NCBI RefSeq assembly: GCF_004010195.1 | Contig: NC_057754.1 | Coordinates: forward strand, 8,540,720 to 8,583,194 | Direction: 5' to 3' | DNA: 42,475 bases | DNA from: Chiloscyllium plagiosum | Lineage: Eukaryota | Shown here: positions 12,379 to 42,170 of the stretch, one piece after another | Numbering within the stretch: the first letter of the stretch is position 1 | Layout of the letters: the number at the start of each line of letters is the position of its first letter | Position numbers and translations under genes: made by a program | The notes under the pieces: generated by a model | What the model was told of the DNA's origin: nothing | The model's input: the letters and a program-made list of their open reading frames with translations, nothing else | Databases searched by the model: none

Positions 12379-13118
12379 AGCCAACACTGCCCTGATACCA
12401 CCAGGGAGAGACATTGCACGTCAGCACCACCTCTCGCTTCAGATCATAGTGGGCCATTGGACCATCTTGTGTGCGTGGCAATGGCTCCTTCAGTCACCAG
12501 GAGGGGCTGAAAGGAGTCACTTCAGGAAGGGAGCCAGGCAATTGACACACAAGCCGGAGTTGGGGCTGCCCGTGTCTCTGAGGAAAGGGGCGAGAGTTGT
12601 GGCAAATGCGCAGTTGCCAGCAGCGCCATCGGAATCTTTAGAAAACGGCTAAAGTTCGGCTGCAAAATGAGCCGCTTGGGTCAGAAGCAGAGATAAAGGA
12701 AATGCAGAGAATAACCCTGGCAGAATGAAAAGAAAGAGAAAATGAAACGAAACAGTTTGAAGTAGGATTAAATGCAGAGGATAAAGAAAAGGAGACGAAG
12801 CAGAAGAAAGGGAGAAAGAGCAGAAAGGGAGAGTTTGAACTTTAGAGGCTGGAACTGAAAGTCAACTTAGAATGGTGGCAGTAGTAGTGAAACGTGGGAG
12901 TACTGATGAGGACAGAGAGAGACAGGAATCTCATCGTAGCCAGGTGCCTAGTGGAGGATTTATTGAAGTACGTCCAAGCGTCATCTTAGTTAGGTGCGAA
13001 GTTTTGCGAAATCCTTTTCATTTCAGTTAAGGAAGTCGTTGAACAAATGAAATGGCTGGTGACCACGTGGGTATTGTTGATCCAAACAAAGTTGGACAGC
13101 AGAGCTCGTGAGGTATTT

Positions 13119-13284
13119 GTGTTGCTGGAAAAGCACAGCAGGTCGGGCAGCATCAGAGGAGCAGGAGAATCGACGTTACGGGCAAAAGCCCTTCATCAGG
13201 GATTTCCTGCTGCCTGACTGCCTGTACTTTTCCAGCACCACGCTCTCGACTCTGATCTCCAGCATCTGCAGTCCTCACTTTTGC
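13119..13284. mobile_element. Family-A Penelope-end fold-back element with degenerate hammerhead core
   Basis: Inverted arms. Minus strand reads ctgatga-a-gggc-tttt-gccc-gtaa-cgtc. 15-bp TSD ctc(g/a)tgaggtatttg at 13105-13119 and 13285-13299. Confidence 0.85.
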
Positions 13285-13360
13285 CTCATGAGGTATTTGC
13301 ATCACTATCAGAGGAGGTATCTGGGGAGTATAATGAGTTGAAGAAATCCATTTTAATCTC

Positions 13361-13503
13361 AAAGTTAAAAATCACACAACACCAGGTTATAGTCCAACAG
13401 GTTAAATTGGAAGCACACTAGCTTTCGGAGCGTCGCTCCTTCATCAGGTGATAGTGGAGGGCTCAATTGTCAGGCACAGAATTTATAGCAAGAATTTACA
13501 GTG
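13361..13503 (-). mobile_element. Family-B Penelope-end element carrying an intact minimal hammerhead core
   Basis: aaagttaaaaatcacacaacaccaggttatagtccaacagg terminus shared with copies at 25111-25616 and 41137-41285; interrupts the Gypsy gag frame. Confidence 0.8.
13416..13450 (-). ncRNA. Minimal type I hammerhead ribozyme motif (family B)
   Basis: Minus strand: CAC-CUGAUGA-A-GGAGC(GAC)GCUCC-GAAAGCUA-GUG. Stem I CAC/GUG, perfect 5-bp stem II, palindromic AGCU loopless stem III, CUA cleavage triplet. Confidence 0.8.
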
Positions 13504-13567
13504 CATAATGAGTTAGGACCAGAAGCCTATGGAGAACTTTTCAGGAATCTAAGGAGGGATCCTGATC

Positions 13568-13838
13568 ATAGAACATAGAACATAGAAAAATACAACGCAG
13601 TACAGGCCCTTTGGCCCTCGATGTTGCGCCGTTCCAAGCCCACCTAACCTACACTAGCCCACTATCCTCAATATGCCAATCCAATGCCCGTTTAAATGCC
13701 CAGAAAGAGGGAGAGTCCACCACTGCTACTGGCAGGGCATTCCATGAACTCACGACTCGCTGAGTAAAGAATCTACCCCTAACATCTGTCCTATACCTAC
13801 CACCCCTTAATTTAAAGCTATGCCCCCTCGTAATAGCA
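13568..13838 (-). mobile_element. CR1/HER1 LINE 3' end
   Basis: (catagaa)n tail and reverse complement of RT C-terminal region (FFTQRVVSSWNALP). Confidence 0.88.
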
Positions 13839-14036
13839 GAGTGCTGTAGAGACAGAGTTCTTGTGTATGTTTAAACTGAGATAGATTCTTGATCAGTTGG
13901 AGAATCAAGCGCTACAGGGAAAGGGGCAAGGAAGTGGAATGAGGACTGTTGGATCAGCCAAGTATCAAGGAATGTTGGACCAGCAGGCTCGAGTGGCTGG
14001 AAGGTATGCTCCTGGCTCTATTTCTTATAGTCTTAA
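13839..14036 (+). mobile_element. CR1-type LINE 3' end, diverged
   Basis: gagatagattcttgatcag...ctcctggctctatttcttatagtctta, a CR1 3'-UTR pattern. Confidence 0.65.
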
Positions 14037-14304
14037 TACATTCTCCTAGAAACAGAGATTGTTGAAGACGGTTAAGGGAATAGGTTTCCTCAATGTAAAG
14101 GTTGTTGTTTATGAAAACATCCAGACGAGAGATATTTCATTGTAAATCTGCAAAAACTTTTAATGGAAGACTGAGAAAATCTTGGTAGCGTGAGTGCTCG
14201 TGGGAAAAAAAGCATCGCAGCTTATGAGACTGGAACAGTTAAATGAAACATGCAGATCTGGTAGTGAAGGAAAATTACCTCAAGTTTTGAATAACTAGAA
14301 CGTT

Positions 14305-14900
14305 TTTAGATTGATTCACTCATGGAACATGGGTGTTGCTGGCTAGCTGGCATTTATTGCCTGTCCATTGTTGCCCTGTGAGAAGGTGGGAGTCAGCTGC
14401 CTTTCTGAGCCATTGCAGCCCATGGACAGTAAGGAGACCCACAATGCTATTAGGGAGGGAATTCCAGGATTTTGACCCAGTGACAGTAAAGAAGAATGAC
14501 ACATTTCTAAATCAGGATGGTGACTGGCTTGGAGACACTTGCAGGTGGTGGTGTTCTGATGTATCTGCTGTCCTGGTCCTTCTAGATGGAAGTGGCTCTG
14601 GATTTGGAAGGGGCTAAGGATCTTTCATGAATTTCTGCAGTGTATTTTGTAGATATACACACTATCACTACTAAATGTCGATGGTGAACAAAGTGGGTGC
14701 AGTGCCAATCAAGTGTGCTGCTTTGTCCTGGATGATGTGAAGCTTTTTGAGTGCTACTGGAGCTGTACTTTTACAGTAAAGTGGGGAGTACTCCATCACA
14801 CCTGTGCCATGTAGATCATGGACAGGGTTTAGGGAGTCAAGAGTTGATTTATTCAATGCAGTATTCCGAGCCTCTGAGCTACTCGTGCAGTCACTGTGTT
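14305..14900 (-). mobile_element. Non-LTR (CR1/L2-group) LINE 3' fragment
   Basis: Minus strand MEYSPL...LKKLHIIQDKAAHLIG and FTVTGSKSWNSLPNSIVG; same family as 37575-37885 and 39165-39460. Confidence 0.75.
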
Positions 14901-14904
14901 TATA

Positions 14905-15212
14905 TAGAATCCCTACTATTTGGAAAGAGGCCCTTTAGCCCAACATGTCCAACACCATCCCCCGAAGAGCATCCCACCAAAAAACATCTCCCTACCTTGT
15001 CCCTGCAACCCCCACGGCTAATCGCCAAACCTACACATCCCCAGACAATGGACAATTTAGCATGGCTAATGGCTAATCCATCTAACCTGCACATCTTTGG
15101 ACAGAGAAAGGAAACCACAGCACCTGGAGGAAACCCTTGCAGACATGGGAGAATGTACAAACTCCACATAGACATTTGCCCAAAGCTGGAAATGAACCCA
15201 AGCCCCCTGTGC
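14905..15212 (-). mobile_element. HE1 SINE, 5' degraded
   Basis: Reverse complement of V-domain and tail (ggacaatttagcatggctaat...acctgcacatctttgga...aaactccaca). Confidence 0.85.
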
Positions 15213-18593: not shown

Positions 18594-18865
18594 TCTCCCT
18601 GGAACAGAATGGTAGTGAAGGTGGATCTGAGTGTACTAGGATGATTCTGAGTGAGAGACTGACTGCACCTGAACCATCCTGTGTGTGAATCTGACTGCAT
18701 CAGAATCACTTGGATGTGAATCGGACATGTCTGTAATTATTTTGAGTTTGCATCCTGACTGGATTGAACGCTTTATGAGTGTGACTCAACCAGAATCATT
18801 TGAAGTGTGAATCTGACCAGTTTCGAATGATTCTGAGGATGAATCAGGCTAGAACCATATTTTAG

Positions 18866-19068
18866 CTGAAAATGTGTTGCTGGAAAAGCGCAGCAGGTCA
18901 GGCAGCATCCAGGGAACAGGAGAATCGACGTTTCGGGCATAAGCCCTTCTTCAGGGCTTATGCCTGTTCCCTGTTCCCTGGATGCTGCCTGACCTGCTGC
19001 GCTTTTCCAGCAACACATTTTCAGCTCTGATCTCCAGCATCTGCAGACCTCACTTTCTCCTCAAAGAT
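18866..19068. mobile_element. Family-A Penelope-end fold-back element
   Basis: Near-perfect inverted arms plus tail ctctgatctccagcatctgcagacctcactttctcc; perfect 16-bp TSD tagaaccatattttag at 18850-18865 and 19069-19084. Confidence 0.9.
18927..18954 (-). ncRNA. Minimal hammerhead ribozyme core (family A)
   Basis: Minus strand: CUGAAGA-A-GGGC(UUAU)GCCC-GAAACGUC; palindromic ACGU stem III, GUC triplet; stem I weak in this copy. Confidence 0.7.
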
Positions 19069-19335
19069 TAGAACCATATTTTAGTAAGTGTGCATTTGAC
19101 AGGACCACAATCATTAAGAACGGCAGTCTGATGACACAGGAGTCATTTGGAGTGTGAATCTGACCAGACCAGAATTATTCTGAATATAAATATGACTAAA
19201 CCTGAATATTTATGAGTGTGAGACTTACTGTACCAGAATCATTCTGCCTGTGAATCTTATTGGACCAGAAACATTTTGAGTGTGAGTTGACCATTGTAGA
19301 ATGATTTCGAGTGTGAATCTGACTGAACCAGAATC

Positions 19336-20090
19336 TGAGTCGAGAGTGTGTTGCTGGAAAAGCACAGTCGGTCAGGCAGCATCCAAGGAACAGGAAAATT
19401 GACGTTTTGGGCATAAGCCCTTCCTCGTTTTCCAGCACTACACTTGACTCTGGTGGAGCTGATAGGTGGGAAAGGTGATGGACAGGTCAGGAGGGTGGTG
19501 CCGAGTTCTTCAAGATCACAATGTCCCCTCCCACATGGTTGATGATGGCCTCCATAGCATCTCCTCCACTTCCTGTACCACCGCCCTTGAACCCCACCCC
19601 TCCCAACGCAACAAGGACAGAATCCCCCAGTCCTCACCTTCCACCCATCTCCACAAATATAACATCATCCTCCACCACTTCAGATATACCTATCAGCATT
19701 CTGGAGAGATCATTCGCTCCGCGACTCCCTCATCAGGTCCAAGACCACCCACCAGGCTAACCCCACACCCAGCACCTTCCCTTGCCACTGCAGGAAGTGC
19801 AAAACCTGTGCCCACACCTCCTGGCCCATAAGCCTCATTCCGATGAAGGGCCTATGCCTGAAACGTCGATTCTCCTGCTCCTGGGATGCTGCCTGACCTG
19901 CACCACACTCTCGACTCTGATCTCCAACATCTCCAGCCCTCACTTTCTCCTGGTGGATTTTAACCCCACGGTGAAACCTCTTCCAAGGATGCCTACCTTG
20001 AAGAAGCTCTCCTCCTCACTCCACAAAGATCTGAGTGAGTCGCCCCCAGGTCATCTCCTCTGCCCTGAAGCTCTTCAGCCACAGCCACTA
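19336..20090 (+). mobile_element. Rearranged Penelope-like element (Neptune-type) fragment: inverted end, ORF remnant, pseudo-LTR
   Basis: PSHMVDDGLHSISSTS...RNKDR and the Cys-rich linker TFPCHCRKCKTCAHTS (about 19770-19820), then the family-A terminal sequence (19838-19951) running into a putative ORF start MPTLKKLSSSLHKDLSES. Confidence 0.8.
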
Positions 20091-20245
20091 TCACTCTGTT
20101 TGTTAATCTGACTAAACCATTCTCATTGCTCATGTGAATCCCCCTGGAACAGAGTGTTGATGATTGTGATTCAAATAATTCTGAGTGTCAATCTGAATCA
20201 ACTGGAATCCTTCTGGATGAGAGTCTGACTGAACCCGGATCATGT

Positions 20246-20580
20246 GGGGTGGCACGGTGGCTCAGTGGTTAGCACTGCTGCCTCACAGTGCCCGGGACCC
20301 CAGGTTCGATCTCGGGTGACTGTCTGTGTGGAGTTTGCACATTCTCCCCGTGTCTGCATGGGTTTCCTCGGGGTGCTCTGATTTCCTCTCACAGTCACAA
20401 AGATGTGCAGGTTGGGTGGATTGGCCGTTCTAAATTGCCCCATAGTGTCCAGGGATGTGCAAGTTAGGTGTGTTGGCCAAATATAGGGTAGGGGGCTGGG
20501 TCTGTGTATGATGGTCCTTCGGAGGGTGGGTATGGACTTGATGGTCCAAATGACCTGTTTCCACACCGTTGGGATTCTAG
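20246..20580 (+). mobile_element. HE1 SINE, near full length
   Basis: A box tggctcagtgg, B box ggttcgatc, V-domain, internal direct repeat gatgtgca(g/a)gtt, CR1-derived tail. Confidence 0.93.
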
Positions 20581-20968
20581 GGACTCTGAACATGAATCCA
20601 ACTAGACTGGAATCACGAGTGTGAACCTGATTGGGCTGGAACTGAATCGTTCTGAGGATGAGTCTTCCTGGACCAGAATCATTGGGATCATTAATCTGAC
20701 GAGGCTTGAATCAGTTTGCGTGTGAATCTGACTGGAGTGGATGCTGTGTGAAATGTGGATCTGCCTCAGAAGCTGAATATTATGATGTTCACAGAGTGTG
20801 AATAAGACTGGACAGAAATCACTGGGTGTGTGAGTTGGCCCACTTCAGAACCATTTGAGAGTGAATTGGACACATCTGTAGCCATTCTGAGTTTGAATCT
20901 GACTGGACTGGATGCTTTATGAGCAACTGGAATCATTCTGTGTGCAAAGCTGACCAGTCTTCAATTAT

Positions 20969-20997
20969 TGTGTGTGTGTGTGTGTTTGTGTGTGTGT
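20969..20997. repeat. (TG)n microsatellite
   Basis: tgtgtgtgtgtgtgtgtttgtgtgtgtg. Confidence 0.9.
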
Positions 20998-21469
20998 ATC
21001 TGACTAGAATGAATCATACTCAGTGCAAGTTTAACAGGATGACAATATTCAAGAAATGTGTATCTGACTCACCCAGAGTCACCCTGAGTGCGAATCTGAC
21101 CAGACCAGAATTATTACGAGTGTGAGACTTACTGGAGTGAATTATTCTGCCAGCAACTCTGACTAGGCCAGGAGCTTTCTCTGTGTTCATCTGATTAGAC
21201 CCGAATAATTCTGACTGCGAATCCGACTCAACCAGCCTCATTCTCTGTATGAAATTGACCTGATTGGAATCACCCAAAGTGTCAATCTGGGAGGACCTGA
21301 ATCATTTTGAGGATGAGTCTTACTGGACCGGGACCATTCCGAGTTTGATCTGACTGGACTGGATGTTTTATGAGTATGAATCCGACTCAACCACAATTAT
21401 TCCATGTGAGAATCTGACTCAATCAGAATTATTCTGAGTATGAATCTGATTGGTTTAAAGACGGTTTCA

Positions 21470-22075
21470 TTCACAGTCTTTATATTCCTCGCCTGATTAT
21501 CCTTAGAGTTTAGATTTATATCTTTGCTATCATTTTTGGGTCCTACTTTGCTGGATATTCAATTTATCCCAATTTTTGCTCAACATCACTGACTCTGGCC
21601 TCCTTATGTGCTTTTTCTTTCAATGTAATGCTCTCTGTTATTTCCTTGGTTGGACTTTGTTGGTTTAACCCTTTCTTAGAATCTTTTCGCTTTACTGAGA
21701 TTTTTGTTTTGCTGAGAGTCATGATTTACCTCATTAAATGCCTGACATTGCTTTTTCTTAACCTGTCAGTCCGACGAACCTAAAAACCCAGTTCACTTTA
21801 GCTAACCGTACCTTCATTTCATTGTAATTCCCGTACTGAAGTTAAGCATTGTTATTTCTGAACCAACTAATTCTCGAACTGCACAGTAAGTTCTATCATG
21901 TTAGAACTACTCTTTGGGAATGTAGCCAATCAAGTGGTGAAAGTTTCAGAGGGTGAGCATTTTAGGGATAGTGACGATAACTCTGCAGTTTCAGAGCCAC
22001 TGTGGGAAGGGACAAGGATAGTGCAGCAGCTAAGTGTCTGAACGCTGATTGCAAAGCCATGAGATGGGATCTGGC
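21470..22075. mobile_element. Old CR1 ORF2 fragments (minus strand to about 21925, plus strand after)
   Basis: gagcattttagggatagtgacgataactct and gatctggcaaacatagactggga resemble the CR1 post-endonuclease region (EHFGDSDHNS; DLA..DW). Confidence 0.55.
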
Positions 22076-22826
22076 AAACATAGACTGGGAAGCAGACAGG
22101 CAGGAGGCTGGAAGAACACAGCAAGCCCAGCAGCATCAGGAGTTGGAGAGGAGAGGTAGAATCCTTCTTCAGGAATGCAGGTGGGGTCGAGGGAGCTGTG
22201 GATAACAAGAGAGGTGTGGGGGAGGGTTTTGGGTGGGGACGGGGCAGAATGGTGAGATAGTAGTAGCTGACCACTTGGTCGATGGGAGGGATGAATCCAG
22301 TTGGTAGCTGGAAGGGAGGTTCGATCGTAGGGTTGGAGCCGGGTGGGTGGGGGAAGGGTGTGGGTGGGAAGGTTATTTGGAATTGGAGAACTCAATGGTG
22401 AGTCCTCTGGGCTGTAGGCTGTCCAGGTGGAACATGAGGTGTTGTTCCTGCAATTTGCGGTCGGATGCACTGTGGCAATAGAGGACGCCGAGGATGGACA
22501 TGCCGGAGAGGGAGTGGGAAATGGGCGGTGACCGGGAGGGCAGGCTGGCCCTGAGAGGCCCAGCTGAGATGCTTGATGAATCATTCCCTCAGCTTACGGT
22601 TTGGTCTCAGCAGTGTGGAGAAGAACACATCAGGAGCACCGGATACAGTAGACTAGGTTGGAGGGGATGCAGTGAAACCTGTTTCAACTGGAAGAACTGT
22701 TTGAGGCCTTGGGTGGAGGTGAGGGAGGTGGAGTGCCGGCAGGTTTTGCATCTTTTACAATTGCAGGGGAAGGGGGGAGGGGAGAGAGAGTCTGGTGCGA
22801 ACCAAGGAGTGACGATGGGACGTGTC
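22076..22826 (-). mobile_element. Penelope-like element 3' fragment with GIY-YIG endonuclease remnant
   Basis: Minus strand PFPCNCKRCKTCRH, NLVYCIRCS*CVLLHTAETK, RKLQEQHLMFHLDSLQPRGLTIEFSN; C-rich 3'UTR; partial ctgaagaagg core. Confidence 0.85.
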
Positions 22827-23149: not shown

Positions 23150-23693
23150 CGTGTCCTCTCAGTCCTTTGCAGACTCGACTGGCACTTCAAATGTGCCTGA
23201 CTGTCAGAGCGTTGCAACAGGTTTACCGTCAGTGGGAGCAATGGAGTTAAAACCATGTCAAACCATCAAACCTCAGGCTGATTGAGATCACATCGTATTG
23301 TCAATGATCTCTCCAGGTTCATATGTAAAAGGAAAGGGGACATTAGTTAAACAGAGTACACTGCAGGTTGTTGCGAGCACCACAGCTGCAGTTTTCTCTG
23401 TGCGATATGTTGTTTTTAGCTTCTGGCAAAAAAAAACACACCAATTGAAGGCGAAAGAGATGGCGAACCAGACAGACCTGTCAGCGGCTGCACAAATCAT
23501 GGCATAAATAGTATTACAGATAGGGATAATGTCCAGGAAGGATCCAAGCAAATAATAATGATGAATCCACCCCAGTACCACCTCAACAACAAAACCAGTA
23601 GATCCACTGTTGCCGTGGCCACCAGATAGTGAGTGATGCGAGCTGAGAGTCAGCAATTCGCCTGAGACAGGATCCCAATAGTCGCTTAATTCG
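23150..23693 (-). pseudogene. GPR139/GPR142-like GPCR pseudogene (exon 2, TM1 to ICL3), paralog of the gene at 35037-40131
   Basis: Acceptor ttctgtttcttgcAG (23694-23695), then N*ATIGILSQANC*LSARITHYLVATATVDLL...SVWFAISFAFN...CQKLKTTYRTEKTAAVVLATTCSVLCLTNVPF...MVLTPLLP...SRVCKGLRGH. Stops and frameshifts; DRF motif lost; TM6-7 absent. Confidence 0.9.
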
Positions 23694-24027
23694 CTGCAAG
23701 AAACAGAAGGTTGCAGAGACTAGATGTTACCGATCAACGTTTCTCTGCATCATGTCCGCTCCTGAACATCACTGCAAGAGTTTCTCAGACTAATGTCTTT
23801 GGACGTACGATTGTTGTCTGCTTCACCTAGACAGTGGGAAAGGGTGAGCAGAATGTACTGTAAATGTGACCTCTCAGAGGCGATACTTGGGAAGGTAAAT
23901 TGGGATGGAGCATGGGGAACATTGTGCACGGTGGGAGATCAGAGTTGTTGATTAGTGGTGACTTCCGCTGGCTACTGTATTCATTCTGGGAGTGTGTTGC
24001 CTGATGACAAAACCTGATTCCAGAATA

Positions 24028-25616: not shown

Positions 25617-25767
25617 TTTAATCTCACAAATTTTCCAAAATGGAGATACTTGAAATCACGTCACTCGCACTCTCACACACACTCATTTAACACACTCACT
25701 CTCAATCTCACTCACATTCACACTCCCTCATTCACACACACAATCAGACACACACTTGCATACAAAG

Positions 25768-27500: not shown

Positions 27501-29714
27501 AACTCAGACTCACATTCTCTGTCAAACACAGATAAGTTCACACATGCGTACACAAACTTACAAATGCTTGCACACACACTCACCCTGACAATCACTGTCA
27601 AACACACACTCACTTAAACACACCTGTACAACCTAGTACACACACACGCTCAGCTTTACACATTCTCTCACTCTCATTCTCCCTCACACATTCATCCCAC
27701 GCACTCACTTGGAAACTCTGACGCATACACACACACATGCACGGAGTACTTATTCAGCAAGCACTTTCTTAGGCACCCTCTCATACACTCTCACTTAACA
27801 CTCACACACTGACAGTCTCTCACTCACACACTCAGCCTCACATTCACACAAACTCACTCTCTCACACACACACATTCTCTCCCTCTCATGACAGATATGT
27901 TTGGAATTTGCACTTCCTGTATAAACTCATTAAGTATTCTGGATTTTGGGATCAAGAGAGGAGGGTGAGTGGCATTTTTGATAAGGGATGTATTACATCT
28001 GTACTTAGGGAGGATATTCCTGAGAATACATCCAGGGAAGTTATTTGGGTGGAACTGAGAAATAAGAAAGGGATGATCACCTTATTGGGATTGTACAATA
28101 GACCCCTAATAGAGAGCGGGAAATTGAGAAACAAATTCATAAGGAGATCTCAGTTATCTTAAAGAATAATAGGATAGTTATAGTAGGGGATTTTAACTTT
28201 GCAAACATAGACTGGGACTGCCATAGTGTTAAGTGTTTAGATGGAGAGGATTTTGTTAAGTGTGCACAAGAAAATTTTCGGGTTCTGTATGTGGATGTTG
28301 CTACTGCAGAAGGTGCAAAACTTGGCCTGCTCTTGGGAAATAAGGCAGGGCAGGTGACTGAGGTGTTAGTGGGAGAGCATTTTGGGGCCAGCGACCTTAA
28401 GGGAACTTAGGAGGGCAAAAAAGGGACATAAGACATCTTTGGCAAATAGAGTTAAGGAGAATCCAAAAGATTTTTATAAATGCATTAAGGACAAAAGAGT
28501 AACTAGGGAGAGAATAGGGCCCCTCGAAGATCAGCAAGGCAGCCTTTGTGTGAAATGGCAGGAGATGGGGTAGATGCTAAATGAGTATTTTGCATCAGTG
28601 TTTACTGTGGAAAAGGACATGGAAGATATGGAATGTTGGGAAGTGATTGCTGGGCCCCTTGCTGAGATATTTGTATCATTGATAGTCAGGTGAGGTGCTG
28701 GAAGACTGGAGGTTGGCTAACGTGGTGCCACTATTTAAGAAGGGCGGTAAGGACAAGCCAGGGAATTAAAGACTGGTGAGCCTGACCTCGGTGGAGGGCA
28801 AGTTGTTGGAGGGAATCCGGAGGGACAGGATTTACATGTATTTGGAAAGGCAAGGACTGATTAGGGATAGTCAACATGGCTTTGTGCATGGGAAATCATG
28901 TCTCACAAACTTGACTGAGTTTTTTTGAAAAAGTAACAAAGAGGTTTGATGAGGGCAGAGCAGTGGAGGTTATCTATATGGACTTCACTAAGGCTTTTGA
29001 CAAGGTTCCCCATGGGCGACTGATTAGCAAGGTTAGATCTTATGGAATACAGGGAGAACTAGCCATTTGGATACAGAACTGGCTCAAAGGTAGAAGACAG
29101 AGGGTAGTGGTGGAGGGTTGTTTTTCAGACTGGAGACCTGTGACCAGTGGAGTGCCACAAGGATTGGTGCTGGGTCCACTACTTTTCATAATTTATATAA
29201 ATGATTTGGATGGGAACATAGGAGGTATAGTTAGTAAGTTTGCAGATGACACCAAAATTGGAAGTGTAGTGGACAGCAAAGAAGGTTACCTCAGAGTACA
29301 ACGGGATCTTGATCAGATGGGCCAATGGGCTGAGAAGTGGCAGATGGAGTTTAATTCAGATAAATGCGAGGTCCTGCATTTTAGAAAGGTAAATCTTAGC
29401 AGGACTTAATGGTAAGGTCCTGGGGAGTGTTACTGAACAAAGAGACCTTGGAGTGCAGGTTCATAGCTCCTTGAAAGTAGAGTCATGGGTAGATAGGATA
29501 GTGAAGAAGGTGTTTGGTATGCTTTTCTTTATTGGTCAGAACATTGAGTATAGGAGTTGGGACGTCATGTTGCGGCTGTACAGGACATTGATTAGGCCAC
29601 TTTTGGAATCTTGCATGCAATTCTAGTGTCCCTCCTATTGGAAGGGTGTTGTGAAACTTGAAAGGGTTCAGAAAAGATTTACAAGGATGTTGCCAGGGTT
29701 GGAAGGTTTGAGCT

Positions 29715-29932
29715 GGAAATGTGTTGCTGGAAAAGCACAGCAGGTCAGACAGCATCCAGGGAACAGGAGAATCGACGTTTCGGGCATAAGCCCTTCTTCA
29801 GGAAAGCCCTTCTTCGGGCTTATGCCCGAAACGTCGATTCTCCTGTTCCCTGGATGCTGTCTGACCTGCTGCGCTTTTCCAGCAACACATTTCCAGCTCT
29901 GATCTCCAGCATCTGCAGACCTCACTTTCTCC
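29715..29932. mobile_element. Family-A Penelope-end fold-back element nested in CR1
   Basis: Near-perfect inverted arms; intact hammerhead core on minus strand at 29774-29801; perfect 16-bp TSD ttggaaggtttgagct at 29699-29714 and 29933-29948. Confidence 0.92.
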
Positions 29933-30119
29933 TTGGAAGGTTTGAGCTATAGGTAGAGGCTGAATAGGCTGGGGCTGTTTTCCCTGGAGTGTCAGAGGCT
30001 GAGGTGTGACCTTATACAGGCTTATAAAATCAGGAGGGGCATGGATAGAGTAAATTGACAAGGACTTAGCGAGTTTTGACAACGTCTTTTCCCTGCGGTG
30101 GGGAGTTCAGAACGAGAGA

Positions 30120-30657: not shown

Positions 30658-31553
30658 GAGAGAGCATAGGTTGAAGATGAGAGGGGAAAGATATAAAAGG
30701 GACCTAAAGGGCAACTTTTTCACATAGAGGGTGGTGCATGAATGGAATGAGCTGCCAGAGAAAATGGTGGTGGCTGGTACAATTACAGCATTTAAAAGGC
30801 ATCTGGATGGGTATGTGAATAAAAAGGGTTTAGCGAAATATGGACCAAGTGCTGGCAAATGGGGCCAGATTAATTTAGGATATCTGGTCAGCATGGACGC
30901 GTTGGACTGAAGGGTCTGTTTCCGTGCTGTATATCTCTAATACTCTATGACTTATTGATCTTTATGACCCTAATGCATACTTGCTTGCACAATTTGCTTA
31001 TCACAAGGTGTTGGTGGAACCATTTTTCATGTTCGCCAGCATTCTGTTTGCTCTTGCACACCTTATTCCCCTTTTACTTTCTTTCCTAGTTGTACTTACG
31101 TATTTCCTGTTGAATGGCTAATCTAACTTGCATCCCATTCAAAGTATATGGATATCCTTTCTCTCTCTTTCATTATCAGTAGAATCCTGGCATTGGCTCA
31201 TCCATCGTTCCTTCTCAATTGAAGCAAGCCAGACATTCACATTGAAATTCAATGCCAGTTTGAAAAGTTGCAATGTAACATGGAGAGGTCAGGATATGAG
31301 TTACTCCATAGGTCAGACGGAAACACAGACAAACTGATCCAAGTTTCAGTCCAATGTCCTTTCATTACTTCTGGGCTAATTGGAATAGTAGTGTGCTTTA
31401 AGGCAGTGAAAGAGTGGGGAAATAAGGCAGAAATATCGACCTGGAAAATGTTTGGAAGCCAGGAGGGAGAGACTAAGATTAGCACATGTCAGGTCCAGTC
31501 AAGAGGAGAGCAGCATAAGCTTCCTCACGCTGCAGCCCAGTGTCAGAGCAATT

Positions 31554-31685
31554 CATAGAACATAGAAAAGTACAGCACAGAACAGGCCCTTTGGCCTACG
31601 ATGTTGTGCCGAGGATTAATCCTAATGTAAAATAAAATAACCTAACCCACGCCCCCCTCAATTCACTGCTGTCTATGTGCATATT
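31554..31685 (-). mobile_element. CR1 LINE 3' tail
   Basis: catagaacatagaaaagtacagcacagaacaggccctttgg. Confidence 0.8.
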
Positions 31686-32379
31686 CAGTTACCCAATTCA
31701 ATGGGAAAAACCAAAGTATGTGGAGGAGATGTGAATGGTAGAATGGAGACAATTACCAACAGGAAAACAAAACCATGTGGAAAGTCCGGTTTAAGCTCAA
31801 ATTCTACAAACGATATTAAATCAAAACGAGGAACGGTTTCTGATATCGTTGATTCAATTTTGATCCCTGGAAGACTGGGAAGCACTGAACTGACAGATGT
31901 GGTGCGATTTCTTGATCTCGTGAGCTGAGAATCTTTGGAAAATGTCAGGAGGTCGAGAACCCAGTGATGAGCTTGAACTAATTTGCCCCAGATATTTATT
32001 TCACCACCTTGACTCTCGGCTAATATTGGGTCCACAAAACACTGATCCGTCAACCATACAAACTACTCAATCCTTACTGCTGTATGAAACTGGCGCTGAT
32101 ATATATTTTAATCTTTCAGGAGAGATCAATGATTTTATTTTCATGAATATCCAAAATTCAAAGCATTTACTCAAAGAATTCCACGTTTTAGAACAGCAGG
32201 CTTTTTACTATATAATAATTAAAAATGTACACACTACATCATTCCTGCGACAGCAATCAGGGATGCCGCATTCACATATGTTAAATGTAGGTTAACATGA
32301 CATTTCAGCTAATTACAAATTATAGATTGTTGATTACTTGTTAACAGCAGATGCAGAGAAGACAGATCTTATTGGATCT

Positions 32380-32755
32380 TACTTTACTGGTCAGAGCATT
32401 GAGTATAGGGGTTGGGAGGTCATGCTGCAGCTGTACAGGACATTGGTCCAGTGTCTTTTGAAATATGGTATGGAAGGATGTTGTGAAACTTGAAAGGGGT
32501 TCAGAAAAGATTTGCAAAGATGTTTCCAGGGTTGGAGGGCTTGAGCTATAGAGAGAGGCTGAATAGACTAGGGCTGAGCGTCGGAAGCTGAGAGGTGACT
32601 TTATAGAGGTTTATAAAATCATAAGGGGCATGGATAGGAGAAATAGACAAAGCCCTTTCCCTGGGGTAGGAGAGTCCAGAACTAAAGGGTATACGTTTAG
32701 GATGAGAGGGGAAAGATATAAAAGAGACCAAAGGGGCAACGTTTTCATGCAGAGG
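32380..32755 (+). mobile_element. CR1/HER1 LINE fragment
   Basis: LIEVYKIIRGMDR, GVGESRTKGYTFRMRGERYKRDQRGNVFMQR. Confidence 0.88.
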
Positions 32756-32833
32756 TTAAAGAGACAGTGGCAAACATTGACTCGAAGGGACCACAGAAAC
32801 AGAGAGAGGAATGGGAGCATTTAACCCTTTGTA

Positions 32834-32926
32834 GGAGAAAGTAGGGCTTATGCCCGAAACGTCGATTCTCCTGTTCCTTGGATGCTGCCTGACCTGCTGC
32901 GCTTTTCCAGCAACACATTTTTCAGC
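32834..32926. mobile_element. Family-A Penelope-end element with one arm almost entirely missing
   Basis: ggagaaagt (9-nt inverted tail stub) joined to agggcttatgcccgaaacgtc...cagc; perfect 14-bp TSD tttaaccctttgta at 32820-32833 and 32927-32940. Confidence 0.88.
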
Positions 32927-33119
32927 TTTAACCCTTTGTAAACAAGGATGGCCGGCCTGACAGCCAATGGAGCAGGTGTGACAATGAAAGGGACTGACTG
33001 TGAATAAAGATATGAAAGTTTGGATGATGTTGAGAGTACAAAATGGGATAATTATGGGAGACCATCATAATGCTCTCCCATAATGCGTTGCAATATTGAC
33101 ATTCTGTGCGATGCATGGA

Positions 33120-33730
33120 TTAGATGTCCAGCGCCCCTTGAACAGAGACAGGAGGTGAAGCCTGGGTAATCTTTATGGCGGTAAGTATTCATTCCTATTA
33201 GCAGAGAGCAAGGTGGCAGATAGTGGACGGGTCAAAAGAGAGATAGCGCTCGGTTAGAGATGGAAATCTCCAACCTGTGTGTAGGAACCTCCACTGTGTT
33301 TTGCATGGTGTGGCTGAGGAATATCCAGTATCTGAGAAATCTGAAGCAGCCATGGAACGGTGAGGGGATGGAGTCAAGATCCAGGTGCGGTCCCGCTCGA
33401 CTTGATGTTGGTGGAGAGTGAATGGAAGATGCTGGTGAGGCAGGAGTGCCAATATCAGTGGGCAGGTTGTAAAGAAGGCAAGTAGATATTTGGCACCATC
33501 AAATAAGATGTAATTTCTCCCTTGATATTTCCGCACTGTGTCTGGGCTGAATTCTGAATGGAAGGATTCAATATTAAGCTCTGGCACAGGTCGGGGAAGT
33601 AACATCAGGATCAAAGATTTTGGAGAGGAAAAGGGGATTGGAAATTGTGTTGCAAGGGACAGATGGCGTGGTGTATTTCAGCAGAGGCTTGAGTATGGCT
33701 GGTTTAATGTAGCAAGGGATAGGCTGTAAG
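33120..33730 (-). mobile_element. Highly degraded L2-type LINE RT fragment
   Basis: Minus strand aatttccaatccccttttcctctccaaaatc resembles RPISNLPFLSKIL; weaker matches to SAAFDT and WF.SYL motifs. Confidence 0.4.
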
Positions 33731-34096
33731 TACAATTCCATTTGGTCCATTCAAACAGCCACCAAATGGAAGCACCAGGCAGGACTGTTGCTCATGTTAT
33801 ACTCACAGAGACATCTAGCATCTGCAGCAGCTTGCTCTTGTAAGGATAAGATATTTCTTCTTGAGCAGATGGAAATAGGTGCGATTCCAACCACTCGGAG
33901 TGTGAGAGACAATCCCTGCTGCCCCCTCTCGAGGTGCTGTATCTCTCCTGAACTCACTTGCTGGAACTCCAATCTCTTTCCCCCTGTGCACCTCACTTTG
34001 TCCTCGACTGGGCGTCTTTGAGTCACTTCGTGAAATCGAAACCTTGAGACCGGTTCTGTGATGTCGAATATTTCGGTTAGAAATTAAATGAGCAAT

Positions 34097-35097
34097 GGGC
34101 AAGGATGTCCTGCAGCAACCCAGAACTCAGGAAGACAGAATATATACAAAGGATTTAAATGGAACAGTTAACCAAAGAGCACTATCCTCCAGTTCTTAAG
34201 GGACAAACCCAAAGGAAAAAAAAACACATGACCAGACACGAGAGCGACCAAACCATACATCAAAGACATATCAGAGATAACTACCTAACTACTCAGAACC
34301 CCTGGCAATCTTAGTGGCTCCATAAACCGGTTAGCACTTTCCACCAGCTCCTCACAAAGGTTAAAGACTCAACACCCACATCCAACAGGATGGATGTCAT
34401 GTACAAGTCTGTGAAAATCACCACATGGGACAAACAGGAAGAAAACTAACCATACGAGTGTACCAACATCAGCTGACCACTGCCGGACATGACCAGTTCT
34501 CTCTCAGTTTCAATGACACAGACAAGGAAGGACACAAATTCAACTGGGACAATGTAACCATCCTAGCACAGACAAAACCGAGACATGCCAGAGAGTTCCT
34601 TGAATCCTGGAACTCCAATGAGAACTCAATCAATAGAGACACAGAGACATAGAGATGTACAGCACAGAGACAGGCCCTTTGGTCCAACCTGTCCATACCG
34701 ACCAGATATCCCAACCCAATCCAATCCCATTAGCCAACACTTTGTCCATCTCTCTCTCTAAACGATTTCTATTCAATACCCATTCAGATGCTTTTTAAAA
34801 TATTGTAACTGAACCAGTCTCCATCACTTTCTCTGGCAGCTTATTCCACACACTCACCACCCTCTGCGTGAAAAAGTTGCCCCTTTGGTCCCTTTCATAT
34901 CTTTCCCCTCCATTGAACAGGAGCCCATATACAAAACACTCAGATACAGAACTGGAAGTACCAACAAACAGAGACATTTAGATACCAGATGGGACAGAGC
35001 ACCAGAGCCTTATCAAAGACACAGGGACGATGTCACCTAGCGAGGTGTCGAAACGTTACCAGAGGAACGGCTCGGCGAACGAATCCACGACTTCATG
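34097..35097 (+). mobile_element. 5'-truncated Penelope-like element (Poseidon-type) with GIY-YIG remnant, inserted into the GPCR C-terminal coding region
   Basis: ARMSCSNPELRK, PYIKDISEIT, HKPVST, MGQTGRKLTIRVYQH...GHKFNWDNVTILAQ...REFLESWNS..SINR; degenerate hammerhead at about 35024-35057; 11-bp TSD aaatgagcaat at 34086-34096 and 35098-35108. Confidence 0.88.
34642..34910 (-). mobile_element. CR1/HER1 3' end nested in the Penelope element
   Basis: GERYERDQRGNFFTQRVVSVWNKLPEKV on minus strand; splits the Penelope INR/IE.EPIY sequence. Confidence 0.88.
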
Positions 35098-35986
35098 AAA
35101 TGAGCAATTGCTGTAAGTGGATATGTCACCATGCTCCTGAGCTGTTCTCGAAACTTGGACTGAGTCACTCCATAAATGAATGTGTTGGTGCAGCAACTCA
35201 AATTCAGTAGCATGATTCCCACTTCGTGAAATATATATTCTGAATGGTTGTAATCAAGAGGCTGTTTTCCTGCAAATTCACCATACAAAATATCAATAAC
35301 AATAACCAACCAAAGGATGATGAAGCTACCAGAAACAGTGAAGAGTAATACCACAGATTTCCTTCTGCTCTCCACCTCTGGGTCACGGTGATCCCCTGGG
35401 CTTCGATGACCCCTCAGTCCTTTGCGGAGTTGACTTGCCTGTAAAATGTGCCTGACTGTCAGAGCATTGAGAAGCAGAATTAAAACAAATGGGAGCACTG
35501 GAGTTAAGATCATGTCAAACCAGCGAAATCTGACCCACCCAGGCTCAGTGAAGTAACTTGGTTTAATATAGCAGTCCCAGGATGCACGGTCAATTCTCAG
35601 CCCGGGTTCAAATACAAAGAAGAAGGGAACATTTTTTAAACAGAGCAGGGCGCAGGTTGTTGCAAGAACCACAATCATATTTTTCGCAGTGCAATATCTT
35701 GTCTTTAGCTTCTGGAAACAAATGGCCACAAATCTATCAAATGAGAAAGTCACAGTGAACCAGACAGAGCAGTTTACAGCTGCACGAATTAGGACAGCAA
35801 TGATGCTGCACACAGGGACGATATTCAGGAAACAAAATAGAAAGTAATAAGAATTGAGCCGCCTCAGTATGATCTCAGTGATAATCACCAGCAGATCAGC
35901 CATTGCCATGGCTATCAGGTAGCGAGTGCTGCAGATGGAGAGGCCACACTTTCTCCAGGCAAGGATCACAATCGTGAACACGTTAA
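35037..35986 (-). CDS. Exon 2 of a class A (rhodopsin-like) GPCR, GPR139/GPR142-like; 338 aa when joined to exon 1
   Basis: Open frame with TM1(end) to TM7: YLIAMAMADLLV, SVWFTVTFSFDRFVAIC, KSVVLLFTVSGSFIILW, SCCTNTFIY, SKFREQL; acceptor tctctctcctttAG at 35987-35988; phase 1 matches exon 1; TAG at 35037-35039. Confidence 0.92.
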
Positions 35987-36374
35987 CTAAAGGAGAGAGA
36001 AGGTACTTAAAATGTTTATCATAAAATCTGTCACAGGATTTCAGGACTGTTTGCAGCTGGTTAAAATTAGCAAATCACAAAATCTCAGTTCTAACTCCAA
36101 CACATTTCCAATATTAGCAAGTTGAATAAAAGCTGAAAAGCAGGCATGATGACGACCAGTCAAAATCTCTGTATTGACCTTTTTATGGGTATTTCTACAG
36201 CCATCCAATTTTTTCCTTTGGAAATTATACATATGAGTATGTAAATCTGATCAGGACAGGAAAGATTTGAAAATAACTAGCCGTAAAATCAGAATCTATC
36301 GAGGCAAAAATGGTGCTGCCAGTTCAGTTCTTTAATCACACCTTGAAGCCATTGGATATTGACCATATTAAAAG

Positions 36375-36591
36375 AATAGGAGAAAGTGAGAACTGCAGAT
36401 GCTGGAGGTCAGAGTCAAGAGTGTAGTACTGGAACAGCACAGCAGGTCAGGCAGCATCTAAGGAGCAGGAGAATCGACATTTCAGGCATAAGCCCTCCTT
36501 CCTGATGAAGGGTTTATGCCCAATACATCGATTCTCCTGCTCCTTGGATGCTGCCTGACCTGCTTTGCTTTTCCAGCACTACACGCTCAAC
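36375..36591. mobile_element. Family-A Penelope-end fold-back element in the GPCR intron
   Basis: Inverted arms; degenerate core ctgatga-a-gggt-ttat-gccc-aata at 36502; 12-bp TSD ccatattaaaag at 36363-36374 and 36592-36603. Confidence 0.87.
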
Positions 36592-37004
36592 CCATATTAA
36601 AAGTATGGTAGGGTCAGAATAATGTTGGGCGTAGGGAGGGAGGGGCATAGACGAATGTCTATGGATGGAATAATTCAATTTTAAAAGGAATAATGTTTGA
36701 AGACAATTGGGACGATTAAAAATTGAATGATAGGTACAGGACAGGTAATAATTTGTGGCAGCAGAATAACAAAGCAACAGAAAAGTTTGTAAATTCTAGA
36801 AAAGACGTGGAAGCACCACAGGCTTAGAAAGGTGATGTGTAGACACAAGAGTTTGAACCAGCCAGCGAGCTGTGTATCAATAAGGGGGAAGAGAACTATA
36901 TGATCAATCAGAAATTGGGAAGAAGAAGCTGAATGCCAAAATCTAAAGACAAATCTAAATTGAAAATGCAGCTGAAGGTGATGAAGACAGGTGTAATGCA
37001 GCTT

Positions 37005-39827: not shown

Positions 39828-40064
39828 CCCAGTTTGTGTCAGCTGTTGAAGATGACAACACTCCCATCTAAGCAGTCATAGCAAGAAATGCCATGCTCAC
39901 CGTGCCCAATAAAACAACAGTGGAGAGAATTCAAATCATTTGGGTTGAGGAAATTATTCAATAAGTGATCGCCCACCCTAATACAATCACTCGAGCAGCC
40001 AGGAGCATTATCAGTGACCAGAGATCTGCTCAGCAGCCAGCTTTGCTCAACTACTGTCACTTAC

Positions 40065-40131
40065 CAGGAACACCAATGATAGCAATGACCAGGTAATAGA
40101 TCTTAGCAATACTATAAAATGTCTCACGCAT
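40065..40131 (-). CDS. Exon 1 of the GPR139/GPR142-like GPCR (MRETFYSIAKIYYLVIAIIGVP)
   Basis: ATG at 40129-40131, 67 nt, consensus donor G|GTAAGT at 40064; splicing gives TM1 motif IIGVPVNVFTIVIL in frame (67+950=1017 nt); 4078-bp intron. Not in the ORF track. Confidence 0.88.
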
Positions 40132-40456
40132 TTTCTGAGTAGAGTGATCCTTTCCTTTATGCTGCCAGCAATACTTCGTATTGAATTCCAAGGAGACAGG
40201 TTGCAAGTTTCATTAATTTGTACTCTGTTGCATCCCAGTGGATGTATTGAGGTTACATCATCATTCCAAATAATTGGGAAAAAAATAAACACATGACCTT
40301 GAGTCAACTCCTGCTGTCATAAAATGTATTCCCTTCGGATGTTGAATTGGTAAACATAAAAGAATGGAAAATTCTGAATGCATTGGAAACTAATTAGCAC
40401 GTTGTACAGAGATGGTTTCCATGATTTAGTGCATAGTGGTCTGGATTTTAACTTTA

Positions 40457-40464
40457 TTTATATA
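40457..40464 (-). promoter_or_regulatory. Possible TATA box for the GPCR gene
   Basis: TATATAAA on the minus strand about 325 bp upstream of the ATG in TE-free sequence; motif match only. Confidence 0.2.
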
Positions 40465-40519
40465 AAGTGGTCACAAAATCCATAAATTGCATGGCTATTA
40501 AGAAGAGCTTCTATGCCCG

Positions 40520-41125
40520 GAGGTGTTAACATTGAGGTCTCTAATTTGAAATAACCTTTCCACCCATCCCCTTTCAGCCCCTCCTCCTCCCTTCCCTTCC
40601 ACCCCCTGGCTCACTGGCTTCTCAATCTAGGCGAAAGTGGGTACTGCAGATGCTGGAGGTTGGAATCAAGATTAGGGTGGTGCTGGAAAAGGACAACAGG
40701 TCAGGCAGCATCCGAGGAGCAAGAAAATCAACGTTTCAGGCAAAAATCCTTCATTAGAAAGATTTTCTTGCTGCTCGGATGCTGCCTGACCTCTTGGCTT
40801 CTCTATCTCCCCACCCCAAATCTCATCCCATGTCCAGCCCTTACTCTCTTCCCCACCTCGTTGACCTGACCCACCTATCCATCTTTTTTCCCACTTATCC
40901 ACTCATCCACTCCACCCTTCCAACTGGCCTATCACATTAAGCCCCTGCATCCACCTATCGCGATCCCACTTCCCTGTCCCTAGCCCCATCCCCTCCTCGC
41001 TTTCTTTCTGAGCTCCCTTCCCCCTCCCCCATCCTGATGAAGCATTTTGACCTGAAATGTTGACTTCCCCACCTCCTGATGCTGCCTGGCTTGCTGTGTT
41101 TTTCCAGCCTGATCTTTGTCAACCT
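40520..41125. mobile_element. Penelope 3'-end fragment with a nested family-A fold-back element (about 40628-40792)
   Basis: C-rich 3'UTR ending cctgatgaagcattttgacctgaaatgttgac...gatgctgcctggcttgctgtgtttttccagc; nested inverted arms. Confidence 0.75.
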
Positions 41126-41136
41126 CGAAATAACGA

Positions 41137-41285
41137 TGATGTGGAGGTGCCAGTGTTGGACTAGGGTGGACAAAGTTAAAAATGACAAAACACCAGGTTA
41201 TAGTCCAACAGGTTAATTTGGAAGTACTAGCTTTTGGAGCGATACTCCTTCATCGGGTACCTGTGGAGCAGGATCATAGGACACA
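41137..41285 (-). mobile_element. Family-B Penelope-end element
   Basis: atgtggaggtgccagtgttggactagggtggacaaagttaaaaat...caccaggttatagtccaacagg; degenerate hammerhead. Confidence 0.8.
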
Positions 41286-41630
41286 TAGAATCATAGAATC
41301 CCTACAGTGTGGAAACAGGCCCTTCAGCCCAACAAGTCCACACTCCGAAGAGTAACTCACCCAGTCCCATTGCCTTACCCTATTACTCTACTTTCAGCCC
41401 TGACTAATGCACCTAACCTACACATCCCTGAACACCATGGGCAATTTACCACAGCCAATTTACCTAACCTGCACATCTTTGGATTGTGGGAGGAAACCGG
41501 AGCACCCGGAGGAAACCCACGCAGACACAGGGAGAATGTGCAAACTCCACACAGACTGTCGCCCGAAGCTGGAATGGAACCCAGGTCCCTGGCGCTGTGA
41601 GGCAGCAGTGCTAGCCACTAAGCCACTGAG
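41285..41630 (-). mobile_element. HE1 SINE
   Basis: (catagaat)n tail, V-domain, tRNA-like head. Confidence 0.93.
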
Positions 41631-41811
41631 CAATAGATTACACTGTAATGTGTCATTTTTAACTTTGAAATAACAAAGTAGTTAAGACCTGACTATGACT
41701 TTTAGTACCGGTCCTAACTGCTTAGTTATTTCAAGTTGTTTTAGTTCTGTTAGGATTACAGTTTAAAAAGGACCAATTTAAGACCGGAGTTTCATTAAAA
41801 ACTGTGGTGTT

Positions 41812-41912
41812 CAGGTGCCGGTGTCAGACTGGGGGTGGATGAAATCAGAAGTCACAAGGCACCTGACGAAAGAGCACCTGTTGGACTATAACACAGTATT
41901 ATGTGACTCCTG
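41812..41912. mobile_element. Short degraded family-B fold-back remnant
   Basis: ggtgccggtgtcagactgggggtgga...cacctgacgaa...cctgttggactataac. Confidence 0.55.
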
Positions 41913-41985
41913 ACATTAAAATTTGTTTAAGTAAGGTGTTGCTCGATATAATAAGATATACTACTGTAATAGCAGAGCACGTGAC

Positions 41986-42170
41986 TAGAGAAAGCGAGGA
42001 CTGCAGATGCTGGAGATCAGAGTCGAGAGTGTGGTGCTGGAAAAGCACAGCAGGTCAGGCAACAGGAAAATTGCCTTTGCAGGCATAATTCTGATGAAAG
42101 ACCTATGCTCGAAACATCGATTCTCATGCTCCTCGGATGCTGCTTGACCTGCTGTGCTTTTCCAGAGCAC
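41986..42170. mobile_element. Family-A Penelope-end fold-back element
   Basis: Inverted arms; ctgatga...gaaacatc degenerate core near 42091. Confidence 0.82.

What the first reader, a model, noticed from the sequence alone, without database searches (positions are those of the whole stretch)
13105..42170. Family A: short non-coding fold-back elements with hammerhead ribozyme cores and 12-16 bp TSDs
Seen: at least seven 90-220 bp copies (13119, 18866, 29715, 32834, 36375, 40628, 41986, plus a fragment at 11612). Each is an inverted duplication of one terminal sequence containing CUGA(U/A)GA-A-GGGC(UUAU)GCCC-GAAACGUC or a decayed version; five have clear TSDs. The same sequence is the terminal repeat of the ORF-bearing Penelope fragment at 19336-20090. 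Established: Penelope-like elements carry minimal type I hammerheads in their pseudo-LTRs and often form inverted ends. Inference: these are either extreme truncation products or a non-autonomous ribozyme-bearing family that is recently active (perfect TSDs, near-identical arms) and very dense here. The loopless palindromic stem III (ACGU) implies cleavage only as a dimer.
Basis: partly seen in the sequence, partly recalled or inferred. Interest (0 to 1): 0.7.

Follow-up and report, generated by a model that had tools for sequence, protein, structure and literature searches.

The report
Fold-back stubs of shark Penelope retroelement
These short mirror-image inserts are real end-pieces of a Penelope-type jumping gene in shark-like DNA, each with its own join and decaying ribozyme motif, likely made afresh when both cut DNA strands copy the element's RNA up to a predicted RNA start; the layout is already described, so this is a new example of a known kind rather than a new ribozyme family.

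Summary
Observation mostly confirmed. Eight insertions and two fragments of one terminal repeat (pLTR) lie in the window; five have clear 12-16 bp TSDs, one checked against empty sites. The linked ORF piece is a Neptune/Nematis-type Penelope-like element (PLE) whose closest named relatives are shark proteins. All 8 junctions differ, only 2 of 15 aligned arms keep an intact hammerhead core (both without native stem I), the core is no better conserved than its flank (91% vs 91%), and copy 32834 is not a fold-back. So these are independent dead insertion stubs, not a non-autonomous ribozyme family. The layout (inverted pLTR, 30-40 nt tail on one arm, TSD, minimal hammerhead) is published. The ends are informative: main arms stop near +97 from the cleavage site, inverted arms near +62, arms mostly start near -32 (the front of stem I, an initiator-like motif), and some insertions have arms from different sequence variants. 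That fits two separate priming events, one per cut strand, running off the RNA 5' end. The scan has noted this before on other DNA (156 findings in at least 21 genomes hold the same key words). Cleavage untested.

The parts
11612..11657 (+). pLTR fragment of the young subfamily, ends near +61, in the 53-bp satellite, left side hidden by the assembly gap 11430-11611
13105..13299 (+). copy 1: TSD 13105-13119 / 13285-13299; inverted arm about +53..-32 (core with one mutation), main arm 0..+97 with an 11-nt deletion
18850..19084 (+). copy 2: TSD 18850-18865 / 19069-19084; inverted arm +62..-29 with intact core, main arm -22..about +104 with a deletion over the cleavage site
19336..20090 (+). complex longer insertion: inverted arm 19336-19427, short rearranged pieces, decayed RT-thumb/linker ORF piece 19505-19821 with CX4CX2C motif at 19783-19809, pLTR 19820-19951 (cleavage site before 19868), run-on to about 20090
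29699..29948 (+). copy 3: TSD 29699-29714 / 29933-29948 inside a CR1-type LINE; inverted arm 29710-29804 (+63..-31, intact core), 12-nt templated repeat at the hinge, main arm 29816-29933 (-20..+97)
32820..32940 (-). copy 4: TSD 32820-32833 / 32927-32940; main arm only 10 nt (32834-32843), inverted arm -21..+62 without the CUGA half; not a fold-back
36363..36603 (-). copy 5: TSD 36363-36374 / 36592-36603; main arm +97..-24, inverted arm -31..about +61; core decayed
40615..40808 (-). copy 6: TSD 40615-40628 / 40795-40808 (1 mismatch), inside the 3' region of a related PLE; main arm +97..-31, inverted arm 0..+32
41973..42170 (-). copy 7: weak TSD (8 bp exact); main arm about +96..-17, inverted arm -32..+46; core decayed
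42376..42453 (-). diverged pLTR fragment at the window's end

Best explanation
Each insert is a separate, truncated landing of the terminal repeat of a Neptune/Nematis-type Penelope-like element, likely written by two priming events, one from each strand of a staggered cut, whose short cDNAs likely ran off the RNA's predicted 5' end at the front of the hammerhead and were then joined head to head. Steps: (1, shown) the arms are pLTR sequence of an endonuclease-bearing PLE and each insertion has its own junction and TSD. (2, shown as end positions; inferred as priming sites by analogy with the Anolis protein) one arm stops near +97 from the cleavage site and the other near +62, the 35-nt difference being the known tail. 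(3, shown as a boundary; inferred as a transcription start) arms mostly begin near -32, the first base of stem I, in an initiator-like motif; priming sites that lie about 100-130 nt from the RNA's 5' end would give stubs of just this size, which explains why stubs outnumber long copies. (4, inferred) the two cDNA 3' ends are joined through short matches supplied by the ribozyme's own stems and palindromes, with local trimming. (5, shown for this window) the copies then decay neutrally and are not working ribozymes.
For: Unique junctions in 8 of 8 insertions. Main arms end at +95..+98 in 6 of 8 (others about +104 and +236); inverted arms at +60..+64 in 5 of 8 (others +53, +46, +32). Genome-wide sharp end at +97: 703 and 700 contigs in runs X1 and X11 of two organisms, followed by unrelated AT-rich DNA. 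14 of 16 arms start between -32 and 0; in 6 of 8 insertions one arm reaches -29..-32 and stops (limits judged by eye); 789 contigs leave the reference at -31 with agreement 0.35 beyond, 153 continue as a head-to-head partner starting at the same point; 7 of 8 listed joints from that place carry the -32 base and only 1 of those continues into upstream family sequence; loose ends keep about 10 upstream letters, then lose agreement; go-back joints restart at the same boundary. The tail stays on one arm whichever arm reaches further upstream (inverted arm in copies 1, 2, 3, 5, 7; main arm in copy 6 and 19336), and copy 4's arms do not overlap. Arms of one insertion differ at family-variable non-CpG sites in 3 of 7 two-armed cases (19336: 3 of 3 sites; copy 1: 2 of 2; copy 7: 1 of 1), and share private variants in copies 3, 5, 6. 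The Anolis PLE protein cuts and extends both strands, starts at two internal sites bounding the tail, and is predicted to be a dimer (PMC11167929). A. vaga pLTRs hold initiator-like motifs (PMC3846280).
Against: No transcription start was measured: polyA single-cell reads of X21 (2,136 laid, both strands) show no pile of ends and X22 gave none. The -31 pile coincides with the place where the reference copy leaves the family sequence, so it counts all contigs reaching that far; only the low agreement beyond shows that most stop, and its majority letters do follow upstream sequence for about 20 nt, so a minority runs on. Frangieh et al. saw no difference in start site between strands in vitro, which does not by itself predict one arm at each site. 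3 of 8 inverted arms end well short of +62. Discordant arms could be post-insertion mutation or gene conversion in old copies (arms 75-84% alike), and the sites were picked partly from the same alignment. That the sequence past +97 is the ORF's start could not be shown. Eight insertions is a small sample and no assembly was available.
Confidence: 0.65

Rival explanations
1. Self-priming: an antisense transcript (or the first cDNA) folds back at the ribozyme's stems and is copied into the second arm, as proposed for head-to-head PLE palindromes by Arkhipova et al. 2013.
For: Published model (PMC3846280). Hinges lie in a region rich in hairpins and palindromes; arms share private variants in copies 3, 5, 6; the inverted arm reaches further upstream in 5 of 8 insertions, as an antisense template would give; X21 reads lie on both strands.
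Against: Both polarities occur with the tail still on one arm (copy 6, 19336); copy 4's arms do not overlap; arms differ at family-variable sites in 3 of 7; does not explain a fixed boundary at -32.
Confidence: 0.15
2. Hammerhead cleavage or stalling at the folded ribozyme, not a transcription start, sets where the arms begin.
For: Two of 16 arms (copy 1 main, copy 6 inverted) begin exactly at the cleavage site, and the -32 boundary is exactly the 5' edge of stem I.
Against: Cleavage would give a boundary at 0, yet 13 of 16 arms include sequence upstream of it; position 0 is not among the six best loose ends (fewer than 109 contigs, against 942 at -30/-31); stem I complementarity alone can place a join at 0; in Anolis uncleaved RNA was the main template.
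Confidence: 0.1
3. A non-autonomous fold-back element (SINE-, MITE- or retrozyme-like) amplifies as a unit from master copies and is kept for its ribozyme.
For: Very high abundance (55,591 contigs of X1 laid on 126 bp), similar sizes, TSDs, a young subfamily 90-99% alike; non-autonomous PLE derivatives exist (PMC8557442; bioRxiv 10.64898/2026.07.22.740005).
Against: 8 of 8 junctions differ; best opposite-strand joint has 3 contigs, and those listed have 1 contig per run; no excess core conservation; the motif is trapped in a hairpin of -195.7 kcal/mol; no tandem same-strand ribozymes in these copies.
Confidence: 0.05
4. The stubs are what is left after longer inverted insertions lost their middle by later deletion.
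For: Long inverted repeats are unstable (general knowledge); several arms carry small internal deletions and 19336-20090 is rearranged.
Against: Young copies with 98-99% alike arms and perfect TSDs are already minimal; deletion would not stop repeatedly at -32; the same boundary recurs in head-to-tail joints.
Confidence: 0.05

Closest known systems
Endonuclease-positive PLE insertions with inverted pLTR, tail and TSD (Adineta vaga Pen2/Pen2a, PMC3846280; general scheme in PMC8557442 Fig. 2 legend)
   Same: Head-to-head inverted pLTR, a 30-40 nt tail on one arm, inverted arm about 35 nt shorter, TSD, microhomology joins.
   Different: Here the unit is collapsed to 95-225 bp with no ORF between the arms, TSDs are 12-16 bp rather than 8-10, and arm starts cluster at one boundary.
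Minimal type I hammerheads of metazoan PLEs (Cervera and De la Pena 2014, PMC4209133)
   Same: Core boxes, extra base between 9 and 10.1, G10.1-C11.1 pair, palindromic 15.2-16.2, dispersed single motifs and pairs on opposite strands 100-700 bp apart ascribed to truncated PLEs.
   Different: Stem II is 4 bp; stem I is 3 Watson-Crick pairs plus a U-U mismatch and is cut or replaced in the stubs; sharks are not named in the parts I read.
Poseidon element of Anolis carolinensis in vitro (Frangieh et al. 2024, PMC11167929)
   Same: Internal reverse-transcription starts downstream of the hammerhead that bound the tail; extension of both strands; AT-rich targets; uncleaved RNA as template.
   Different: Another PLE clade; the paper does not address inverted stubs, their joining or a fixed upstream boundary.
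Non-LTR retrozymes (bioRxiv 10.64898/2026.07.22.740005)
   Same: Non-coding, pLTR-derived, hammerhead-bearing, present in a cartilaginous fish.
   Different: Retrozymes are head-to-tail tandem repeats with an intact ribozyme per unit; these copies are head-to-head singletons with unique hinges and mostly broken cores.

Membership tests
EN+ Penelope-like element, Neptune/Nematis type | Linked to an ORF of the RT plus C-terminal GIY-YIG class | tested here: met
   ORF piece 19505-19821 matches P0006 (RVT_1 and GIY-YIG, both under Pfam cut-off; DKG, YIDD, YIGET motifs) and shark proteins at 52-61%; 3 of the 10 hits were unrelated repetitive proteins. No whole ORF is in the window.
EN+ Penelope-like element, Neptune/Nematis type | CX2-5CxxC motif in the RT-EN linker | tested here: met
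   CX4CX2C at 19783-19809; motif defined in PMC8557442.
EN+ Penelope-like element, Neptune/Nematis type | Placement in Neptune rather than Nematis by RT phylogeny | not tested
   No RT core of this family in the window; no tree built.
EN+ Penelope-like element, Neptune/Nematis type | Inverted pLTR with a 30-40 nt tail on one end, and TSD | tested here: met
   Ends at +97 and +62; TSDs.
Minimal PLE hammerhead | Core boxes, extra base after position 9, G10.1-C11.1, palindromic 15.2-16.2 | tested here: met
   Intact in 2 of 15 aligned arms; traits from PMC4209133.
Minimal PLE hammerhead | Helix I of 4-5 bp | tested here: inconclusive
   Family sequence gives 3 pairs plus a U-U mismatch; both core-intact arms have lost part of the 5' strand.
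Minimal PLE hammerhead | Self-cleavage as a dimer | not testable with these tools
   Co-folding does not return the hammerhead dimer as the lowest-energy form, which is not decisive; no pile of RNA ends.
Non-LTR retrozyme | At least two consecutive same-strand units with complete ribozymes | tested here: not met
   No such tandem among the window's copies.
Non-autonomous element amplified from a master copy | Copies at different loci share internal structure and ends | tested here: not met
   8 of 8 hinges differ; no deep shared inversion joint listed (both lists are cut).

The most novel reading that the evidence does not exclude
The stubs are a genome-wide record of PLE integration: a dimeric complex primes two RNAs, sometimes from different source loci, one on each strand of a 12-16 bp staggered cut at the two tail-bounding sites, and both cDNAs run off a transcription start that coincides with the first base of the hammerhead. 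This would replace the antisense self-priming account of head-to-head PLE palindromes and map the promoter from DNA alone.
Probability: 0.4. Interest if true: 0.6.

Novelty: new member of a known kind. Interest (0 to 1): 0.36.

Why it matters
As an element class it is ordinary: PLE stubs with minimal hammerheads. Its value is as data. How PLEs finish integration and why they form head-to-head repeats with a one-sided tail is unsettled, and what their hammerheads do in vivo is stated to be unclear (PMC8557442). A shark genome holds very many such stubs, so end positions and arm-to-arm variants can be counted to tell two-strand priming from self-priming and to test whether cleaved RNA is ever the template. 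For annotation, these hairpins mimic miRNA precursors and likely cause assembly gaps.

Tried and rejected
No whole genome is held, so no assembly-wide count. Rfam: no hammerhead family hit; miRNA hits are below gathering scores and reflect the hairpin. Word-index protein searches with two ORF pieces found nothing; the Atlas gave no usable hit; Pfam gave nothing for the PLE pieces themselves. Metagenome scan for the core pattern: 0. No RNA holder was listed for 29000-37000; raw RNA runs X21 and X22 showed no pile of starts or ends, and a polyA single-cell library cannot map a start or a cleaved end. The cleavage site was not among the six loose ends shown of 159, so a small peak is neither shown nor excluded. 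The sequence past +97 did not match the start of any of 120 PLE proteins. The single arm does not fold better than shuffles (z -0.22). A window search for the upstream boundary motif was at chance level (4 against 3.05). Lunse et al. 2017 is not held; I saw it only as cited in PMC6765202. Searches for Penelope + hammerhead + shark, Chiloscyllium + Penelope + repeat and Penelope-like + twin priming + inversion listed no paper on these stubs, judged from titles and abstract starts; most subscription papers and Repbase/Dfam are not covered.
Full report
Setting. The window is a 53-bp satellite to about 12080 followed by repeat-rich animal DNA with CR1-type LINE pieces and a GPCR ORF. The organism is shark-like: relatives of the linked ORF piece are named whale-shark and Chiloscyllium punctatum proteins. 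Positions written +n or -n below count from the first base after the predicted GUC cleavage site, on the ruler.

Observation. Blastn with three window arms found all seven copies, the 11612 fragment, the longer insertion 19336-20090 and a fragment near 42400. TSDs are exact 16, 16, 14 and 12 bp for the copies at 18866, 29715, 32834 and 36375, 15 bp with one mismatch at 13119, 14 bp with one mismatch at 40628, 8 bp at 41986, and ambiguous at 19336; 2 of 300 random pairs reached an exact 11 bp. The 29715 duplication is single in two uninterrupted CR1-type copies. A strict minimal-hammerhead descriptor hits 3 places against 0 in 20 simulated sequences, two of them in this family.

Identity. The ORF piece in 19336-20090 was missed by word-index searches, the Atlas and Pfam, but the exhaustive search gave 10 hits, 7 of them with the matching linker; P0006 carries RT and GIY-YIG domains (both under Pfam's cut-off) with DKG, YIDD and YIGET motifs. 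The window piece has the CX4CX2C linker motif that marks Neptune and Nematis PLEs (PMC8557442, passages). The hammerhead has the traits listed for metazoan PLE minimal hammerheads, and that paper already reports pairs on opposite strands 100-700 bp apart and dispersed single motifs from truncated PLEs (PMC4209133, parts 1-2 of 4 read). The inverted pLTR with a 31-bp tail, a 37-bp shorter inverted arm and a TSD is described for A. vaga (PMC3846280, passages).

Master family or independent events. All 8 hinges differ. Laying contigs of run X1 on the young arm gave 55,591 records and only five joints, the best opposite-strand one in 3 contigs; the tool warned that some joints were not counted. 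On 19690-20130, the 8 opposite-strand joints listed (of 44 joints, 15 shown) had one contig per run. Core positions match in 98 of 108 cells, stem II in 89 of 101, the flank 0..+50 in 643 of 704, with no compensatory pair change: neutral decay, as expected of dead copies, which says nothing against a working ribozyme in the source element. A transcript of copy 29715 folds into one long hairpin (-195.7 kcal/mol, z -24.65) that hides the motif. The non-autonomous reading is therefore unlikely.

What the ends show. Main arms stop at +95..+98 in 6 of 8 insertions, and 703 and 700 contigs of two organisms and 356 RNA reads break at that point into unrelated, in the DNA runs AT-rich, sequence. Inverted arms stop at +60..+64 in 5 of 8. 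The gap of about 35 nt is the PLE tail. Depth on the pLTR is 10 to over 1000 times that on the ORF-side sequence (summed contig depth, not a copy number, and dented where the reference has private changes). On the other side 14 of 16 arms start between -32 and 0, and in 6 of 8 insertions one arm reaches -29..-32 and stops (limits judged by eye). In X1, 789 contigs leave the reference at -31 with agreement 0.35 beyond, close to the 0.33-0.34 of unrelated flanks, and 153 continue as a head-to-head partner; 7 of 8 listed joints from that place carry the -32 base and 1 of those continues upstream (12 of 42 shown). The reference itself ends its family match there, so the pile includes a minority that runs on. 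The boundary is the first base of stem I and sits in a motif that fits the initiator consensus YYANWYY (consensus recalled, not from a call); initiator-like motifs are reported in A. vaga pLTRs and an internal pLTR promoter in D. virilis (PMC2377424, passages).

Mechanism. The Anolis PLE protein cuts and extends both strands, starts at two internal sites that bound the tail, uses uncleaved RNA, and is modelled as a dimer (PMC11167929, parts 1-2 of 4 read). If the transcript starts at -32, priming on its 5' pLTR at +97 from one strand and +62 from the other gives two run-off cDNAs of about 130 and 95 nt; joining their 3' ends through the stems' short matches, with trimming, gives the observed units. 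This is inferred. Points for it over the published self-priming model: the tail stays on one arm whichever arm reaches further upstream, copy 32834's arms do not overlap, and arms differ at family-variable non-CpG sites in 3 of 7 insertions, while 3 others share private variants (sites +4 and +10 are also variable genome-wide). Points against: no start was measured, 3 of 8 inverted arms end early, old copies may have mutated or converted, and the ORF start past +97 was not confirmed. Two arms begin exactly at the cleavage site, but that position is not among the six top loose ends of 159 and stem I complementarity can explain it, so cleavage in vivo is neither shown nor excluded.

Prior work. 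The layout and the ribozyme are in print. The fixed -32 boundary and the two-template arms were not in the passages I read nor in the listings; supplements were not examined and may bear on this, above all those of the retrozyme preprint (part 1 of 5 and passages read). Also seen as passages only: PMC6155905 and PMC6765202. The scan's own notes hold the same reading many times (156 findings in at least 21 genomes); I had noted the two-strand and start-site ideas before that look-up, and those notes are not independent evidence.

Verdict. Interest 0.36, for the testable handle on PLE integration.

Noticed in passing
window 34086-35108: A third PLE family (GIY-YIG-like 3' part) of about 1 kb with an 11-bp TSD (34086-34096 / 35098-35108) sits in the 3' end of the GPCR ORF 35037-36074 (minus); the element supplies the ORF's last codons and stop, and the former C-terminus continues in ORF 33815-34126.
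   Followed up: partly
window 25101-25626: A second hammerhead-bearing family forms the same head-to-head layout with a 10-bp TSD and a one-sided extension; an intact core of that family with a different 5-bp stem II lies at 13447 (minus).
   Followed up: partly
window 22100-22800 (minus) and 40570-41110: 3' ends of related Neptune/Nematis-type PLEs (linker and GIY-YIG remnants at 22400-22790, decayed hammerheads); copy 40628 is inserted into the second.
   Followed up: partly
window 29760-29805, table 5c: Same-strand jumps from the -32 boundary back to -1..+14, the deepest at depth 122, would make short head-to-tail hammerhead dimers elsewhere in the genome; possible dimer-competent units.
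   Followed up: no
window 1-12080: 53-bp satellite, with an assembly gap 11430-11611 directly beside the young pLTR fragment, which may hide the rest of a fold-back copy.
   Followed up: no
window 18600-21480: Diverged 32-bp tandem repeat that hosts copy 18866 and the 19336-20090 insertion.
   Followed up: no
window 23288-23719 (minus) and about 39950-40150: Further decayed pieces resembling the GPCR at 35037-36074, suggesting a receptor gene cluster (by eye; no Pfam hit for 23291-23719).
   Followed up: no
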